Shown piece by piece: positions 4,078 through 62,741 of a DNA stretch of 64,000 nucleotides. The translations under genes and the position numbers were made by a program. The stretch lies in sequence record MK327940.1; one strand, written 5' to 3'. Positions within the stretch are counted from its first letter, which is position 1. Each line of letters begins with the position of its first letter. Source of the stretch: Escherichia phage vB_EcoM_G29. The notes beneath the pieces were generated by a model that was not told where the DNA came from, searched no databases, and saw only the letters and a program-made list of their open reading frames with translations.

Positions 4078-5551
4078 TTATGGATAGGTATAGATGATAC
4101 CAGTTTCTAAAGCAGTTTTATGAATGATGTATCCATTGCGTGATTCTTGAACATCAACTTCTGGATAGTCTTTCATCATCTTCTGAAGAGTGTAACGATG
4201 CAGGTAGTATTTACTATCTGGATCTTCAGTTTTCCAATCTTTACCTTCTTCGGTCATTTTTTGGATTTCATCCATAACCCACCAACCGCACCAGATATAA
4301 GCTGAAGTGCGATGTGGAAGAGGATGAACATAAGGCAATTCACCTTCTGGTTCCGGAGCAACTTTATCAGTTACCTGAACTTGGCCTGTTGCTTTAACTG
4401 TTTTACTATCATAGTCGGTTGCTGTAACGGTTGCAGTAACTTCAATAGTTTGACTTCCAATAGATGATGTATCAACCGTGTATACATTAGTTGATTCTTC
4501 TACAGGAGAAGAATCTTTCTTCCATGAATATTCGATTTGTGCTTCTTCTGGAGCATCCGTAACATTAGCAGTAAATGTAGCCGAAGCATCTTGCTGAACG
4601 TTAATAGAAGGAGGAGTCAATGTAACCTGTGGATTCATTGTCTTCTTATTAACTGTTAATGATACTTCATTAGAAGTAACTTCCTTTTCATTGTAATTTT
4701 CAGCCGTTACTTGGGCTACGCATTTAATTCTTTTTACTCCACTTGTAGTTGGAGTATAGTTAAATGTAGAGTTAGTTTCTCCACCAATTTGAGAATCATC
4801 TACATACCATTTATATGTAGCAGACGCTCCATCAGGTTGAGAAACCAAGGCAGCAGTAAATTGAACTGGGGTTCCAATTACTCCAGCTGGAGGACTATCA
4901 GGAGTTACTGCCAAGGTAGTTGTCTGCGTCTTTTTATTAACAGTCAGTGACACTTCATTGGAAGTAACTTCCTTTGTATCATAATCTGTCGCGGTTACTT
5001 GAGCTACGCACTTAATTGTTTTAACTCCGCTTGCGTCAGGAGTGTAATTGAATGTAGTGCTAGTTGCTTCGCCCACAGGAGAACCGTCAACGTACCATTG
5101 ATACGTAGCGTTTGCACCTGATGGCTGTGAAGCTAAGGCAGCCAACGTACCATTGATACGTAGCGTTTGCACCTGATGGCTGTGAAGCTAAGGCAGCGGT
5201 AAATTCAATTGGAGTTCCAATCACTCCAGCATCAGGGCTACCAGGAGTTACTGCCAAAGTAGTTGTTTGTGTCTTATTTTGAACTGTGATAGTTGTACTA
5301 ATTTCAGCTGTTTCAGGTTCAGATTCTGCAACTTGATTGGTTGCAACTACTTTAATAGTCTTTTGACCGGCAGGTCCTTTTAGTACATAACTAAAAGTTG
5401 CTGACGTTTCTTCCTGTGGAGCGTCGTCTACAGTCCAAGCATATGTAATAGGTCCATCTCCAGTTTGACCACTGGGTGTAGCAGTAAACTGCTGAGTCTG
5501 ATCTATAACTCCAGTAGGTGTTTTAGGAGTTATATCAACTGTAAAAGCCAT
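4078..5551 (-). pseudogene. hoc: hoc (outer capsid protein with Ig-like domains), frame broken by a 55-bp tandem duplication
   Basis: Two overlapping minus-strand ORFs (5087..5551 and 4078..5172) together encode repeated Ig-like ~95-aa domains (QTTTLAVTP...VSLTVNKKT) plus a C-terminal region (LPYVHPLPH...WCGWWVMDEIQ); the break coincides with a perfect direct repeat at 5088-5197. Confidence 0.8.
5088..5197. repeat. Perfect 55-bp tandem direct duplication (2 copies: 5088-5142 and 5143-5197)
   Basis: caacgtaccattgatacgtagcgtttgcacctgatggctgtgaagctaaggcagc occurs twice back-to-back with 100% identity; 55 is not a multiple of 3. Confidence 0.95.
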
Positions 5552-16648: not shown

Positions 16649-16678
16649 TTTGTGTTCCTCATGTTATGTCAGTAAGAC

Positions 16679-16709
16679 TACTATAACACAACACGAGGGA
16701 CTTGTAAAC
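16679..16709 (-). promoter_or_regulatory. T4-type early promoter (GTTTAC -35, TATAGT -10)
   Basis: Minus strand GTTTAC-18 nt-TATAGT; part of a 53-bp unit repeated at 32581-32633. Confidence 0.6.
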
Positions 16710-18766
16710 TACATCTTGAACTTTTTAGACATTCCGTTGATGTTAACCAAAGAAGCTAAGATTTGAGAAACTTCGTTTTCCTCTTCTTTTGATTCTTCTA
16801 CAAGGAATTGATTAAATCCAGCCATTGGACGAACTTCACCAGTTTCCATTAGATGGTCGCCATCATATACTGATTCTTCTAATTGTTCAGAAGGAGGAAC
16901 GATTGTACCTTCGATTAGATACTTGTTATAAGCAGTTTCTTTCATAAAGTAAGTACTTACTTTATTAATCTTCAGTAAAATTCCACGTGGTAGAATAACT
17001 TCAGCTTCTGACGGAAATCCTGATAAATGACCCGGAACGATAACTTTGATTCGCTCAGCTCCTTTAATTACCATACCCACGCTAGTTTCAGCATCTTCAT
17101 TAGCATATGTAGAATGACTACCCATATGCATCAAATCTTCTGCATCAACGGAACCTTCTCCTTCACCAGAAAATACTGCGCCGGAATCATCTAGAGCCAT
17201 ATAGTTTTTACCATGCTCACCGAAGATATTTGGTTTAAGCGATGTGGATACGAAGTTCTTGAAATAGAACATTTTATTTTCAATGTTATGACGCAAAGTT
17301 TTAAAGGTAACTTCTTGTCCACGGTAAAGTGTAGTTCCTGGAGGAAGAACTGAACCTTTAGCGAATGCAGAATCAAGCGTCTCAATATGTTTAATAGCTC
17401 GTTCCATATATTCTTCACGGGTAGAATCTGGTTTACCCAAAAGGAACGAGTTCATTTCAACATATGAATCTGCACAATAATCTTCAATTACATCAGATTC
17501 AGCTTGAGTTAATCCTTTTGGAGTTACTTCAGTGCTTGCGTATTCATATGCCTGAGCAGCAGATTCATTAATCAATTTATAAATGCCATTCATGACAAAT
17601 TGAATAATAGCTGTCTTTTCATCTGGCGTAGCTTTAGAACCTTTAACCAAATCATTGATAATTTTCTTAATAACATCAAAGCTATTAGAAATATTAATAT
17701 CAGCAAGATCGCTTAAAATTTTATCAGTCTTATAATCAAAGAATTCTTTATTCTTTAAATATTCTTGAGAACCTTGATATGTTATATCGCTCTGTAACTT
17801 GATAGATGGATCACGTAAACGTGCATGGGCTAATGCAATATGATTTCGGAAGCTTTCGAGTTCATAATCACTAGATTTAAAACGAGAAGCGCTTCTCATA
17901 CCGCCTATAGCTCCTTTGCTGAAGTTTGAACCAATTTGAATAACGCCAGAGTTCATTGGTCCTTCTGCTTTATACACCGGAACTTTAGATTCAAACTCTT
18001 GATATTTCTTAGCAGCGAAGCTATCACCCTGAAGTGAAGCATCAACAGTAGAATATTGAGCTTGTGCTGCTAATCGACGACTAATTTTAGTTTTCTGAAT
18101 AACAGCTTGGTCCGTGCGCTTATCATTTTCTAAAGCAATAGAAGCAGCAACAGCAACAGCTTTAGGAACAGCATTACCTGTTTTAACATCTACATAAACA
18201 TCACCAACCTTTGATTCAACTTTTGTGAATAACTCAGTTGAAATAGGAGGTACACCTGGAATGTCTTCTAAATTGGCATTTTTACGATAAACCATAATAT
18301 ATGCGTACTTTTTATCATAATCCCAGATTTCCTTTAAAAGAACATATCGACCTGCTCCTTTAGTACGTACTAAACGGTCAGCAATAACTTGCATTTGACG
18401 AGCAGCGCCATTTGTTTTACTCTTTAGTACGCGGAATAAGCATGCATCAATTTTATACTGTTTCATTGTTTGAAGAGCAGTATCAAAAACAGCGTTAATG
18501 ACGCCAATTGGATTTCCACCCAAGTTTCTAAGTTTAACCAGTGATAATTTCTCGTTGACACCTATCATTACGATATGCATCATTTTATCGCCCGGCTTAA
18601 CGTTTTTATTTGTATCACCTCCAGAGGTGTATGTACAAAATCTAAATCCAGGAAGCACGCTTTCTTCGCCGGCTTGAATAGCAAAAATTTGAGGTATTTT
18701 ATGCTTAGGATTTAAGTTAACAACCGGCGCCGAAGCGCCGTCAAATAATTCTGTAATAAGTTCCAT
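16709..18766 (-). CDS. Alt-like ADP-ribosyltransferase, second full-length paralog
   Basis: 685-aa ORF; N-terminus MELITELFD and ART motifs (YRGQ, VSTSL, EAEVILPRG) parallel to the adjacent alt; about 50-65% identity by eye. Confidence 0.8.
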   Translation of the reverse strand: MELITELFDGASAPVVNLNPKHKIPQIFAIQAGEESVLPGFRFCTYTSGGDTNKNVKPGDKMMHIVMIGVNEKLSLVKLRNLGGNPIGVINAVFDTALQTMKQYKIDACLFRVLKSKTNGAARQMQVIADRLVRTKGAGRYVLLKEIWDYDKKYAYIMVYRKNANLEDIPGVPPISTELFTKVESKVGDVYVDVKTGNAVPKAVAVAASIALENDKRTDQAVIQKTKISRRLAAQAQYSTVDASLQGDSFAAKKYQEFESKVPVYKAEGPMNSGVIQIGSNFSKGAIGGMRSASRFKSSDYELESFRNHIALAHARLRDPSIKLQSDITYQGSQEYLKNKEFFDYKTDKILSDLADINISNSFDVIKKIINDLVKGSKATPDEKTAIIQFVMNGIYKLINESAAQAYEYASTEVTPKGLTQAESDVIEDYCADSYVEMNSFLLGKPDSTREEYMERAIKHIETLDSAFAKGSVLPPGTTLYRGQEVTFKTLRHNIENKMFYFKNFVSTSLKPNIFGEHGKNYMALDDSGAVFSGEGEGSVDAEDLMHMGSHSTYANEDAETSVGMVIKGAERIKVIVPGHLSGFPSEAEVILPRGILLKINKVSTYFMKETAYNKYLIEGTIVPPSEQLEESVYDGDHLMETGEVRPMAGFNQFLVEESKEEENEVSQILASLVNINGMSKKFKM

Positions 18767-18769
18767 GAT

Positions 18770-20821
18770 TTATCCTTGAACGAACTTGTAAGGCATGTTT
18801 GTAATATCTATGCAAGACGCAATAATTCCAAGAGATGATTCTACTTTCTGTTTAACATTTGATGAAACAAATGATGCAAAGTCAACTCTATCTTCTATAT
18901 CACCTGTCATTGTAACTACTTCGCCGGTTTCCATTAAACGGTCACCGTCATAAATTACTGATTCGGTGAGTTCTTCGGTGGTCATAACTTCAGCTTGAAT
19001 AAGCTTGTTGTTAGTTTTGACTGTTCCATCATTGTAAGATGCATCAGTTATTTTATTAACTTTGACCATTAATCCACGTGGCAAAATGACTTCCATTTCA
19101 TTTGAAGGCGCTAAACTTCCACCGGGTAAAACAACATTGACTTTATCAGCCCCAGTAATAACCCATCCAATTCCGACTAAATTATCGCTAGAATTAACAA
19201 GCCCTTCATCATTTTTATCGATAGAAATGTTTAGACGCTTTTCATCTGGTAAAACACCAACAGCTGAATCAGTCATCCAAGTACCAAAAATGTTTGGATA
19301 TAATGATGTTGATACAAAATTTCTAAAATAAAAAACTCGATTTTTTACCATTGCTTCGTATATTGAAGGTAACATTCGTTGTGAACGATACAAAGTAATA
19401 CCTTTTGGTAATCGTTCACCATTTTTAAAGGCTGAATCTAAATTATCAATAGCTTTTTCTATGTCAGATGCTGTCAAAATACTTGTACGCTCATCTGGAT
19501 TATATAATCCCAAAAGAGCATTATTTATGTCTACATATCCTGAACCTACGTATTCACGAATTCCGCGTTTTTGTGCTGGTGTGTATTTAGATGAATCTTT
19601 ATTTTCGACTATAGGATGTAATGACCATCCAGCTGTAAGAGCATATCCACGTAATTCTCTTCGAATAATCTTTGTTTTTATTGCATTCCAAGAATTTTGT
19701 ACTAACTCATTTGCAGCATCTTGGTTTAAATGCGAATGTTTGTTAATATTTCTTTCAAACCAAGCACCTTTATATTTTTCTAAAGTATTATCGACGATAG
19801 AAGCAATAGTTTCTAAAGTTTTTATTGAAGTAATAGATTCTTTTCGTAATTTTTCTAAAGCTTTATTTTTTATTTCTGCATTAATAATGGATTCTTTATC
19901 TTCAGGAATTATAGAAGCTTCTCTGAATGCCATCCCAGCTGTAACACTGCTAAGAGCATTCTCTAGTGCAAATCCTGAAGTAGAAATTACCGTTAATTCA
20001 TTAGAATCAGAAATTAAAGGCGCATCAGCGGGTTTATTTAATTCTGCTGCTGAAGCCTCAAATTTTTGAAACATCGGTGTTTCAAATCTAGAAGATTCCA
20101 ATGACTGACTTTGTGCAATTGCTCTACGGGAAATTTTAACTTTAACGATTACAGCTTGGTCAGAACGTTTATCATTTTCTTGTGCAATAGATGCTGCAAT
20201 TGCCTCATTTTTGGTTACTTGAGCTCCGGTATCTTTATTGATATAAACATCACCGACCTTCGATTCAACTTTAGTAAAGAGCTCGGTACTAATTTCCGGA
20301 ACTCCTGGAATGTCTTCTAGTGATACATTTTTGCGATGTATAAGAATATATGCATACTTTTTATCATAATCCCAGAGTTCCTTAAGAAGGACGTATCTGC
20401 CACCTGAACGACTACGGATAAGTCTATCAGCAATAACTTGAATTTGTCGAGCTTGATCAGCGGTTTTAGACTTAAGAATACGAAGCATACAAGCATCAAT
20501 TTTATACTGACGCATTGTTTGCATTGCAACAGTAAAAACTGAATTGATATAATTAATTGGGCTTGGACCAAGACCTTTTAATTTAGCAATTGAACCTTTA
20601 GCGGTTAATGTAAAAGGAACAATATGCATCATTTTATCGCCCATTTTTAAATCGCGATTAGTATCACCTCCAGATGTATAGGTACATAAACGAAAGCCTG
20701 GTTGTTCAATTGCATCATCAACATGAACTGAAAAAATTTGCGGTATTTTCTTCTTTGGATTTAAGTTTGTAATCGGAAGAGTAGTATCTTCGTCAAATAA
20801 TTCTGTAATAAGTTCCATCAT
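18770..20821 (-). CDS. alt: Alt ADP-ribosyltransferase (packaged internal head protein)
   Basis: 683-aa ORF with R-S-E ART motifs (LYRSQ, VSTSL, EMEVILPRG); late promoter immediately upstream. Confidence 0.85.
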   Translation of the reverse strand: MMELITELFDEDTTLPITNLNPKKKIPQIFSVHVDDAIEQPGFRLCTYTSGGDTNRDLKMGDKMMHIVPFTLTAKGSIAKLKGLGPSPINYINSVFTVAMQTMRQYKIDACMLRILKSKTADQARQIQVIADRLIRSRSGGRYVLLKELWDYDKKYAYILIHRKNVSLEDIPGVPEISTELFTKVESKVGDVYINKDTGAQVTKNEAIAASIAQENDKRSDQAVIVKVKISRRAIAQSQSLESSRFETPMFQKFEASAAELNKPADAPLISDSNELTVISTSGFALENALSSVTAGMAFREASIIPEDKESIINAEIKNKALEKLRKESITSIKTLETIASIVDNTLEKYKGAWFERNINKHSHLNQDAANELVQNSWNAIKTKIIRRELRGYALTAGWSLHPIVENKDSSKYTPAQKRGIREYVGSGYVDINNALLGLYNPDERTSILTASDIEKAIDNLDSAFKNGERLPKGITLYRSQRMLPSIYEAMVKNRVFYFRNFVSTSLYPNIFGTWMTDSAVGVLPDEKRLNISIDKNDEGLVNSSDNLVGIGWVITGADKVNVVLPGGSLAPSNEMEVILPRGLMVKVNKITDASYNDGTVKTNNKLIQAEVMTTEELTESVIYDGDRLMETGEVVTMTGDIEDRVDFASFVSSNVKQKVESSLGIIASCIDITNMPYKFVQG

Positions 20822-32572: not shown

Positions 32573-32602
32573 CATAAAGTCCTCATGTTATGTCAGTAAG
32601 AC

Positions 32603-32633
32603 TACTGTAACACAACACGAGGGACTTGTAAAC
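32603..32633 (-). promoter_or_regulatory. T4-type early promoter (copy of the 16657-16709 unit)
   Basis: Minus strand GTTTAC-18 nt-TACAGT; 52 of 53 bp identical to the alt.-3-position promoter. Confidence 0.6.
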
Positions 32634-41753: not shown

Positions 41754-41796
41754 ATTATTTTCCTCTTTAATTATCAGCAGTATTGCCGATAGTTGT

Positions 41797-41826
41797 ATAG
41801 TACCATGGAAGGACAAGGATGTAAAC
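41797..41826 (-). promoter_or_regulatory. T4-type early promoter with A/T-rich upstream element
   Basis: Minus strand GTTTAC-18 nt-TACTAT; the flanking sequence recurs at 58484-58545 and 62136-62190. Confidence 0.6.
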
Positions 41827-41849
41827 AGTTTTGTGAAAAAATTTTTGAA

Positions 41850-41877
41850 ATAAAAAAAGGGGACCTCTAGGGTCCCC
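41850..41877 (-). terminator. Terminator after gene 32
   Basis: GGGGACC...GGUCCCC hairpin followed on the minus strand by uuuuuuua. Confidence 0.7.
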
Positions 41878-58104: not shown

Positions 58105-58140
58105 TTTAATCTCCGTTTCAGTTCATTTATTTGATAGGTC

Positions 58141-58170
58141 TATAGTATCATGTTTAAAGCAGAAGTAAAC
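58141..58170 (-). promoter_or_regulatory. T4-type early promoter for motA
   Basis: Minus strand GTTTAC-18 nt-ACTATA; leader CUAUCAAAUAAAUGAACUGAAAC shared with the promoter at 58486-58515. Confidence 0.6.
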
Positions 58171-58436: not shown

Positions 58437-58485
58437 TTTTTGTATCTCCGGGTTGTTTGTTTCAGTTCATTTATTTGATAGTTGT

Positions 58486-58515
58486 ATAGTACCACAGTAT
58501 GCTTTGGTTGTAAAC
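58486..58515 (-). promoter_or_regulatory. T4-type early promoter
   Basis: Minus strand GTTTAC-18 nt-TACTAT plus A/T-rich upstream tract. Confidence 0.6.
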
Positions 58516-58534
58516 CGTTTTGTGAAAAAATTTT

Positions 58535-58566
58535 TGAAATAAAAAAGGGAGAGCCGAGGCTCTCCC
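58535..58566 (-). terminator. Terminator after the gene 52 operon
   Basis: GGGAGAGCC...GGCUCUCCC hairpin followed on the minus strand by uuuuuuauuuc. Confidence 0.65.
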
Positions 58567-62103: not shown

Positions 62104-62137
62104 TTTACTCTCCAAATCCGTATCAGTTGATAGTTGT

Positions 62138-62167
62138 ATAGTACCACGGTCCTTGTGGTATGTAAAC
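62138..62167 (-). promoter_or_regulatory. T4-type early promoter
   Basis: Minus strand GTTTAC-18 nt-TACTAT with shared upstream A/T tract. Confidence 0.55.
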
Positions 62168-62183
62168 CATTTTGTGAAATTTT

Positions 62184-62741
62184 TTAAATGGAAAGATACC
62201 ATCCGCTGTAGTTGCTTTTTCTTACAACCTTACGAAGGTCTTCTCTATCACCGATGAACTTCGGAGTGTATTGGATGACACCTGGATGAATTTCTTTAGT
62301 GTTGAATATAATTATACAGTCAGCGACTTGATGATTTAGAATGGGCCCTAGATTTATTCCAGAACCATATGGATACTCTCCGCTGCATCCTGTTGTCACC
62401 GAAATCCAACGTGAGTCAGTTTGATGTGTCTTAACTTCTACACGAAGCCCGCAGTATCTTGGATGCGCCAATACATCCCATGCATATGTGTACGGATCAT
62501 CGACATCTTCTTGACCTTTGTTAACATACCCGCTCAGCCAATCTGCTACAAAAAACTCTGCGTACACAGCGATACGGCATCTTTCGATAACTTCTGCCTT
62601 ATCCTGATTTGGGTTTTGTTTTAAAGAGTATCTTGCAGTATCAACAATTTTGACCTTCATTTCACTAGTCAAGTCACTGTTCGATAGGGTAAATGTCGGA
62701 ATCTGAAATAGTCTCTGTAACCCCGGATTCGTTTTCTGCAT
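62184..62741 (-). CDS. denB: Endonuclease IV (DenB) candidate
   Basis: 185-aa ORF at the position and length of T4 denB between the ndd block and rIIB; assigned by synteny only. Confidence 0.55.
   Translation of the reverse strand: MQKTNPGLQRLFQIPTFTLSNSDLTSEMKVKIVDTARYSLKQNPNQDKAEVIERCRIAVYAEFFVADWLSGYVNKGQEDVDDPYTYAWDVLAHPRYCGLRVEVKTHQTDSRWISVTTGCSGEYPYGSGINLGPILNHQVADCIIIFNTKEIHPGVIQYTPKFIGDREDLRKVVRKSNYSGWYLSI

What the first reader, a model, noticed from the sequence alone, without database searches (positions are those of the whole stretch)
5088..5197. Perfect 55-bp tandem duplication frameshifts hoc
The 55-mer caacgtaccattgatacgtagcgtttgcacctgatggctgtgaagctaaggcagc is present twice, head to tail, at 100% identity inside the second Ig-like domain of hoc. 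Because 55 is not divisible by 3, the reading frame runs through the wild-type peptide ...AALASQPSGANATYQWYV and then into 18 aberrant codons (GCLSFTAIRCKRYVSMVR) and a stop. The downstream 4078..5172 frame still encodes the remaining Ig domains and the C-terminal region in good codon usage. A perfect undiverged repeat implies a very recent event (replication slippage or a laboratory-strain mutation) or an assembly error. If real, the phage makes a truncated Hoc of about 154 aa that lacks the C-terminal region.
Basis: seen in the sequence. Interest (0 to 1): 0.8.

Follow-up and report, generated by a model that had tools for sequence, protein, structure and literature searches.

The report
Assembly scar duplicated inside hoc
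The perfect 55-base duplication that appears to break the phage head-decoration gene hoc is almost certainly a leftover of genome assembly, because its length equals the assembler's word size of 55; it is probably not a mutation in the virus.

Summary
Window 5088-5197 holds two head-to-tail, 100% identical copies of a 55-mer inside hoc (minus strand). They shift the frame after residue 136 and give a 154-aa ORF.

The biological reading is very probably wrong. The window is Escherichia phage vB_EcoM_G4500 (MK327945.1) and differs from that record at only two places in 64 kb. The deposited record has one copy of the 55-mer and an intact 472-aa Hoc. All 197 related phage records also have one copy.

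The source paper states that these genomes were assembled with SPAdes at k=55 from Nextera libraries, and that the circularly permuted T4-like contigs were then re-arranged by hand. A circular genome assembled at k=55 gives a contig whose two ends share exactly 55 bases. Re-joining the ends without trimming makes a perfect 55-bp tandem repeat.

The same pipeline left visible scars elsewhere. Four sibling GenBank records, including G4500 itself, each contain an exact 55-mer, then 122 nt of adapter and poly-A junk, then the same 55-mer, at four different positions.

The duplication has no border microhomology. It is the only exact repeat of 40 bp or more in the window.

Verdict: assembly artefact (about 0.9). 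A real hoc-null variant remains possible (about 0.07). Read mapping or PCR would settle it.

The parts
5088..5142 (.). Copy 1 of the exact 55-mer. Proposed to be one end of the original SPAdes contig.
5143..5197 (.). Copy 2 of the exact 55-mer. This is the surplus copy relative to MK327945.1; the diff places the +55 at 5143. The join between 5142 and 5143 is the proposed contig-end junction.
4078..5551 (-). The hoc locus (1474 nt). With one 55-mer removed it is the 1419-nt, 472-aa Hoc of G4500 (QBO65873.1). That protein is T4 Hoc plus one extra Ig-like domain, and includes the C-terminal capsid-binding region.
5087..5551 (-). Apparent truncated hoc ORF of 154 aa: 136 wild-type residues plus 18 out-of-frame residues.
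4078..5172 (-). Mechanical 364-aa ORF with a GTG start. It carries the remainder of Ig domain 2, Ig domains 3-4 and the C-terminal domain.
19721..19775 (.). Context only. This 55-mer is single-copy in the window. In GenBank MK327945.1 it is followed by 122 nt of Nextera adapter and poly-A, then a second exact copy of itself. That 177-bp scar is the only other difference between the window and the record.

Best explanation
The duplication is an assembly and finishing artefact, not a property of the phage.

Shown: the phage is vB_EcoM_G4500. Its genome was assembled from Nextera/MiSeq reads with SPAdes at k=55. T4-like genomes are circularly permuted, so the assembly closes on itself, and the single contig was then re-arranged to match published relatives.

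Established knowledge of de Bruijn assemblers: a circular genome assembled at k=55 comes out as a linear contig whose first and last 55 bases are identical.

Inferred: in the version of the genome from which this window was cut, the contig ends lay inside hoc. The contig was cut at rIIA and the old ends were pasted together without removing one copy of the 55-base overlap. That creates a perfect head-to-tail 55-bp repeat and an apparent +1 frameshift (55 = 18 x 3 + 1). The real phage most likely has one copy and makes a normal 472-aa Hoc.
For: (1) Identity of the source. The window matches MK327945.1 positions 104242-168363 and ends at the record's last base. Only two differences occur in 64 kb: +55 in hoc in the window, and +177 in the record.

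(2) An independent deposit of the same phage has one copy and an intact 472-aa CDS. All 197 phage records that match the site span 55 bp less than the query, which means one copy. Eighteen of them are 100% identical in the flanks.

[quoted passage not shown] The repeat length of 55 equals k exactly.

(4) The pipeline demonstrably kept k-overlaps. G4500, G4507, KAW1E185 and G10400 each contain an exact 55-mer, then 122 nt (66 nt of adapter with a sample-specific index, plus poly-A), then the same exact 55-mer. The four positions differ. This is what results from joining a contig of the form S...genome...S+adapter-tip end to start.

(5) In both the window and 164 kb of the GenBank record, the only exact repeat of 40 bp or more is exactly 55 bp long.

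(6) There is zero microhomology at the borders. That is expected for a k-overlap and unusual for replication slippage.

(7) The novel copy-to-copy junction is absent from IMG/VR and from the metagenome contigs. The single-copy junction is found in 1 and 2 contigs respectively.

(8) SPAdes start/end overlaps on circular replicons that need removal are documented (PMC5481147).
Against: No reads could be inspected, so the artefact is inferred and not observed.

The exact record the window came from was not found. It is not in the phage collection searched, and its 154-aa product is not on record.

The window lacks the adapter scar of MK327945.1. It must therefore come from a second assembly or a revised version in which the contig ends fell in hoc. 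That step is inferred.

A bare tandem scar without adapter was looked for in one sibling, G4498, and was not found in its first 99.9 kb.

hoc is dispensable, and three relatives have it annotated as split, so a true hoc lesion would not be implausible in itself.
Confidence: 0.9

Rival explanations
1. This is a real, very recent 55-bp tandem duplication in the phage stock, caused by replication slippage or illegitimate recombination. It gives a hoc-null variant that makes a 154-aa fragment lacking the C-terminal capsid-binding domain, so the capsids would be undecorated.
For: hoc is non-essential in T4 (established knowledge). Three related records have hoc split by single-base indels at gene nucleotides 276, 479 and 756, so loss of Hoc is tolerated, or at least gets deposited. 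A perfect undiverged repeat is what a recent event would look like.
Against: The length equals the assembler's k exactly. There is no border microhomology. The deposited record of the same phage has one copy. The duplicated allele appears in 0 of 197 relatives and in no IMG/VR or metagenome contig. The same pipeline left 55-mer overlaps in four records.
Confidence: 0.07
2. This is some other non-biological origin: a different software step such as contig merging, polishing or manual editing, or an alteration made when the window was prepared. In this reading the match to 55 is a coincidence.
For: The window differs from MK327945.1 by removal of exactly the 177-bp scar, which shows that someone or something re-processed the sequence. 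The window's exact source record could not be located.
Against: A coincidental length of exactly 55 is unlikely, given that k=55 is documented and 55-mer scars occur in four sibling records. Either way the practical conclusion is the same: this is not a feature of the phage.
Confidence: 0.03

Closest known systems
k-mer terminal overlap of de Bruijn-graph contigs from circular or circularly permuted genomes. SPAdes leaves a direct terminal repeat of length k, and Unicycler and Circlator remove it.
   Same: The repeat length equals the stated k of 55. The copies are 100% identical. The genome is circularly permuted and was assembled as one contig, then rotated. Sibling records show the untrimmed 55-mer overlap.
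   Different: The overlap here is internal and tandem, not at the two ends of the record, because the contig was re-linearised at rIIA. In the four deposited sibling scars an adapter tip separates the two copies. Here the copies abut directly.
T4 Hoc (highly immunogenic outer capsid protein; PDB 5vf3, 8t1x, 8t9r and others)
   Same: The underlying gene is hoc. The de-duplicated product matches T4 Hoc at E=5e-221, with near-identical Ig-like domains and C-terminal domain. It sits next to inh and uvsW as in T4.
   Different: It is 472 aa against 376 aa, through one additional 96-aa Ig-like domain. In the window as written, the frame is broken after residue 136.
hoc annotated as split in other Tequatrovirus records (FriedrichMiescher MZ501066, 101117BS1 MZ234018, vb_GEC_SH_GT OR887633)
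   Same: hoc is annotated as two CDSs because of a frameshift.
   Different: Those lesions are single-base indels, +1 or -1, at three other positions. None is a 55-bp duplication, and none has a length that matches an assembler parameter.

Membership tests
Assembler k-mer overlap artefact (untrimmed circular-contig junction) | Repeat length equals the k used in the assembly | tested here: met
   The repeat is exactly 55 bp with 0 bp of extension. The paper states SPAdes 3.12.0 '55kmer'.
Assembler k-mer overlap artefact (untrimmed circular-contig junction) | The genome assembles as a circle and the contig was re-linearised | tested here: met
   The paper says T4-like permuted genomes gave a single contig that was arranged after published relatives. 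The record starts at rIIA.
Assembler k-mer overlap artefact (untrimmed circular-contig junction) | Absent from an independent assembly of the same isolate and from close relatives | tested here: met
   MK327945.1 has a single copy. None of 197 related records carries the duplication.
Assembler k-mer overlap artefact (untrimmed circular-contig junction) | The same pipeline leaves the same scar in other genomes | tested here: met
   Four of four adapter-bearing sibling records show 55-mer, 122 nt of junk, then the same 55-mer. The bare tandem form was not found in 99.9 kb of G4498.
Assembler k-mer overlap artefact (untrimmed circular-contig junction) | No reads span the copy-to-copy junction, with a depth anomaly there | not testable with these tools
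   Raw reads are not available here.
Slippage or illegitimate-recombination tandem duplication (real mutation) | Short direct repeat (microhomology) at the duplication borders | tested here: not met
   There is 0 bp of shared sequence at either border. This feature is typical of such events but not obligatory.
Slippage or illegitimate-recombination tandem duplication (real mutation) | The allele is seen in independent sequence data | tested here: not met
   The junction 40-mer has 0 matches in IMG/VR and 0 in metagenome contigs. No record in the phage collection carries it.
Hoc of T4-like phages (the gene affected) | Sequence homology to T4 Hoc across the Ig-like domains and the C-terminal capsid-binding domain | tested here: met
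   phmmer against PDB 5vf3_Z gives E=5e-221 and covers residues 1-124 and 189-472. Pfam finds PKD/Ig domains.
Hoc of T4-like phages (the gene affected) | Uninterrupted reading frame giving a capsid-binding protein | tested here: not met
   In the window as written, the frame breaks after residue 136. It is intact in MK327945.1.

The most novel reading that the evidence does not exclude
The duplication is real. This stock of G4500 would then be a spontaneous hoc-null variant created by a 55-bp tandem duplication without border microhomology, and the match to the assembler's k would be a coincidence. It would be a natural Hoc-less Tequatrovirus, useful for comparing capsid decoration, stability and mucus adherence.
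Probability: 0.07. Interest if true: 0.25.

Novelty: not a real feature. Interest (0 to 1): 0.06.

Why it matters
As biology it matters little, because Hoc is dispensable and a knockout would be a strain note.

As data quality it matters more. An untrimmed k-mer overlap creates a false pseudogene in a structural gene. The same finishing step left adapter and poly-A scars in deposited genomes, two of which have RefSeq copies. Those scars split gp5 in G4507 and add 59 junk residues to an Alt-like ADP-ribosyltransferase in G4500.

One simple screening rule follows. A perfect tandem or near-tandem repeat whose length equals a common assembler k (55, 77, 99 or 127) in a circular or permuted genome should be treated as an artefact until reads say otherwise.

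Tried and rejected
1. I looked for the window's exact source. The 154-aa product is not on record, the junction 40-mer is absent from IMG/VR and metagenomes, and no phage record carries the duplication. The source version remains unidentified.

2. I looked for a bare 55-bp tandem scar in a sibling genome without an adapter hit. G4498 has no exact repeat of 40 bp or more in its first 99.9 kb. The single-piece and two-piece alignments argue against one in 103.7-153.7 kb. The remaining roughly 18 kb of G4498 was not fetched.

3. I asked whether the internal repetition of hoc could have caused a graph tangle at this site. Ig domains 2 and 3 are 288 bp apart and the 55-mers are 69% identical. The longest exact match between the two domain-coding stretches is only 16 bp, far below k=55, so this was rejected as the cause of the break point.

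4. I considered a physical terminal repeat of the phage genome. This was rejected because T4-like genomes are circularly permuted with no fixed ends (established knowledge; also stated).

5. I considered programmed frameshifting or phase variation. Nothing supports either: there is no slippery or homopolymer context, the allele is absent from all relatives, and the repeat is 55 bp.

Full report
**Observation.** Window 5088-5197 contains the 55-mer CAACGTACCATTGATACGTAGCGTTTGCACCTGATGGCTGTGAAGCTAAGGCAGC twice, head to tail, at 100% identity. Tandem Repeats Finder reports period 55, 2.0 copies and score 220. It is the only exact direct repeat of 40 bp or more in the whole 64-kb window, and it cannot be extended by a single base on either side.

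On the minus strand it interrupts a gene. ORF 5551..5087 encodes 154 aa, and a mechanical GTG-started ORF at 5172..4078 encodes 364 aa.

**What the gene is.** With one copy of the 55-mer removed, the locus encodes a 472-aa protein. It matches T4 Hoc (PDB 5vf3 chain Z and four further entries) at E=5e-221. Residues 1-124 align to T4 residues 1-124, and residues 189-472 align to T4 residues 93-376. This Hoc is therefore T4 Hoc plus one extra 96-aa Ig-like domain. Pfam finds PKD and Ig domains along it.

The duplication occupies gene nucleotides 355-464, inside the second Ig-like domain. The frame yields 136 wild-type residues, then GCLSFTAIRCKRYVSMVR and a stop. The neighbours are inh and uvsW, as in T4.

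**Where the window comes from.** Megablast shows the window is Escherichia phage vB_EcoM_G4500 (MK327945.1; Tequatrovirus gee9062; isolated from manure in Germany) at 100% identity. A base-by-base diff against record positions 104242-168363 finds only two differences in 64 kb, and the window ends exactly at the last base of the record.

- The window has 55 extra bases in hoc, which is the second copy.
- The GenBank record has 177 extra bases at window position 19775/19776.

The deposited record has a single copy of the 55-mer and an intact 472-aa CDS (QBO65873.1, 'PKD domain protein'). All 197 phage records that match the site span 55 bp less than the query, so each has one copy. That includes 18 records that are 100% identical in the flanks.

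**The second difference explains the first.** The 177 extra bases in MK327945.1 have two parts. The first is 122 nt of Illumina Nextera adapter (CTGTCTCTTATACACATCT-CCGAGCCCACGAGAC-index-ATCTCGTATGCCGTCTTCTGCTTG) followed by poly-A read-through junk. The second is an exact second copy of the 55 bases that precede the adapter. The deposited record therefore reads 55-mer, junk, same 55-mer. That 55-mer is the only exact repeat of 40 bp or more in the 164 kb of the record that I examined.

**The stated method.** The paper that reports these phages (Korf et al. 2019, Viruses 11:454, PMC6563267) describes Nextera libraries sequenced on MiSeq. [quoted passage not shown] It is established behaviour of de Bruijn-graph assemblers that a circular path is emitted as a linear contig whose ends share k bases. 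[quoted passage not shown]

**Test in sibling genomes.** If this pipeline joined contig ends without trimming, other genomes from the study should carry the same scar. A search with the adapter sequence found it internally in four records of the same study:

- G4500
- G4507 (MK327946.1, and its RefSeq copy NC_054919.1)
- KAW1E185 (MK373781.1, and its RefSeq copy NC_054922.1)
- G10400 (MK327937.1)

In all of them the architecture is identical: an exact 55-mer, then 122 nt (66 nt of adapter with a sample-specific index, plus 56 nt of poly-A-rich junk), then the same exact 55-mer. The four genomic positions differ.

This is what is expected if the adapter read-through formed a tip at a branch vertex S of the k=55 graph. 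The contig would come out as S...genome...S+tip, and it would then be rotated by pasting end to start. The 55-mer overlap was demonstrably not trimmed.

**Mechanism for the window.**

- *Shown:* k=55; rotation of the contigs; untrimmed 55-mer overlaps in four records; a single-copy hoc in the deposited G4500 record; and a repeat length of exactly 55 with perfect identity and no border microhomology.
- *Inferred:* the window was cut from another assembly or a revised version of G4500 that lacks the adapter scar. In that assembly the circle was opened inside hoc, and the two ends were joined without trimming. With no adapter tip, the two 55-mers abut and form a perfect tandem repeat. Because 55 = 18 x 3 + 1, hoc appears frameshifted.

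**The rival reading: a real mutation.** hoc is dispensable in T4 (established knowledge). Three relatives have it annotated in two pieces: FriedrichMiescher, 101117BS1 and vb_GEC_SH_GT. Their lesions are three different single-base indels, at gene nucleotides 756, 479 and 276, and none is this duplication.

Several results count against a real duplication here:

- The length matches k exactly.
- There is no microhomology at the borders.
- The other deposit of the same isolate has a single copy.
- The novel junction 40-mer is absent from IMG/VR and from metagenome contigs. The single-copy junction is found in 1 and 2 contigs respectively. These controls are small, so this last point is weak.

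I put the real-mutation reading at about 0.07.

**Limits.**

- I could not inspect reads.
- I could not find the exact record version that carries the duplication. Its 154-aa product is not on record.
- One sibling without an adapter hit, G4498, shows no bare 55-bp tandem in its first 99.9 kb. The bare form of the scar therefore has no second example in what I examined.
- The internal repetition of hoc does not explain why the break fell there. The longest exact match between the Ig-domain 2 and Ig-domain 3 coding DNA is 16 bp. An unbranched cycle can be opened anywhere.

**Verdict.** The feature is real in the sequence file but is very probably not real in the phage. It is an untrimmed k=55 contig-end overlap that creates a false hoc pseudogene. 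Biological interest is low. The practical value is a curation warning, which also applies to the adapter scars in the deposited sibling genomes.

Noticed in passing
window 19775/19776 (MK327945.1 positions 123962-124138): The GenBank record of G4500 carries a 177-bp scar here, made of Nextera adapter, poly-A and a repeated 55-mer. The scar is in frame, so protein QBO65890.1 is 741 aa and contains 59 junk residues (poly-F ...KQKTAYEMAVGLVGSEMCIRDR...). The window's ORF at 18770-20818 (minus strand) is a clean 682-aa ADP-ribosyltransferase (PF03496, Alt-like).
   Followed up: yes
L008 (MK327946.1 76194-77259; also NC_054919.1), L009 (MK373781.1 145795-146860; also NC_054922.1), L010 (MK327937.1 109518-110583): Three more genomes of the same study carry the same 177-bp adapter and 55-mer scar, and two of them have RefSeq copies. 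In G4507 the scar splits the gp5 baseplate hub/lysozyme gene into two annotated CDSs.
   Followed up: yes
phage collection: 43 phage records match the Nextera adapter read-through sequence. Many of the matches lie at the very ends of records, for example the ev017 and Lambda_ev records, the 'Bacteriophage sp.' LT98/LT99 contigs, and AbKT21phiIII. This indicates widespread untrimmed adapter in deposited phage sequences.
   Followed up: no
window 4800-4854 vs 5088-5142; hoc 4078-5551: Hoc of this lineage is 472 aa, against 376 aa in T4, because it has an additional 96-aa Ig-like domain. The paralogous domains lie 288 bp apart, and the 55-mer has a 69%-identical counterpart in the next domain.
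   Followed up: partly
L005 (MZ501066.1), L006 (MZ234018.1), L007 (OR887633.1): hoc is annotated as two CDSs in three other Tequatrovirus records. The causes are different single-base indels: +1 at gene nucleotide 756, -1 at 479, and +1 at 276. Whether these are true mutations or sequencing errors is unknown.
   Followed up: partly
window 41788-41863, 58477-58552, 62129-62204; 16656-16709 and 32580-32633; 58115-58150 and 58459-58494: These are dispersed, conserved 36-76-nt direct repeats in intergenic positions. On the minus strand they contain GTTTAC...TATA-like motifs. From memory they look like T4-type early promoter regions, but I did not test this.
   Followed up: no
window 18570-18727 and 20619-20776: A 158-nt direct repeat, 72% identical, with 2049-bp spacing. 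This fits two tandem paralogous Alt-like ADP-ribosyltransferase genes; RefSeq annotation of relatives lists 'Alt-like RNA polymerase ADP-ribosyltransferase (x2)'.
   Followed up: no
window 64000 (end): The window ends exactly at the last base of MK327945.1 (position 168363). Its source therefore uses the same linearisation as that record, even though it differs from it by the two indels.
   Followed up: partly
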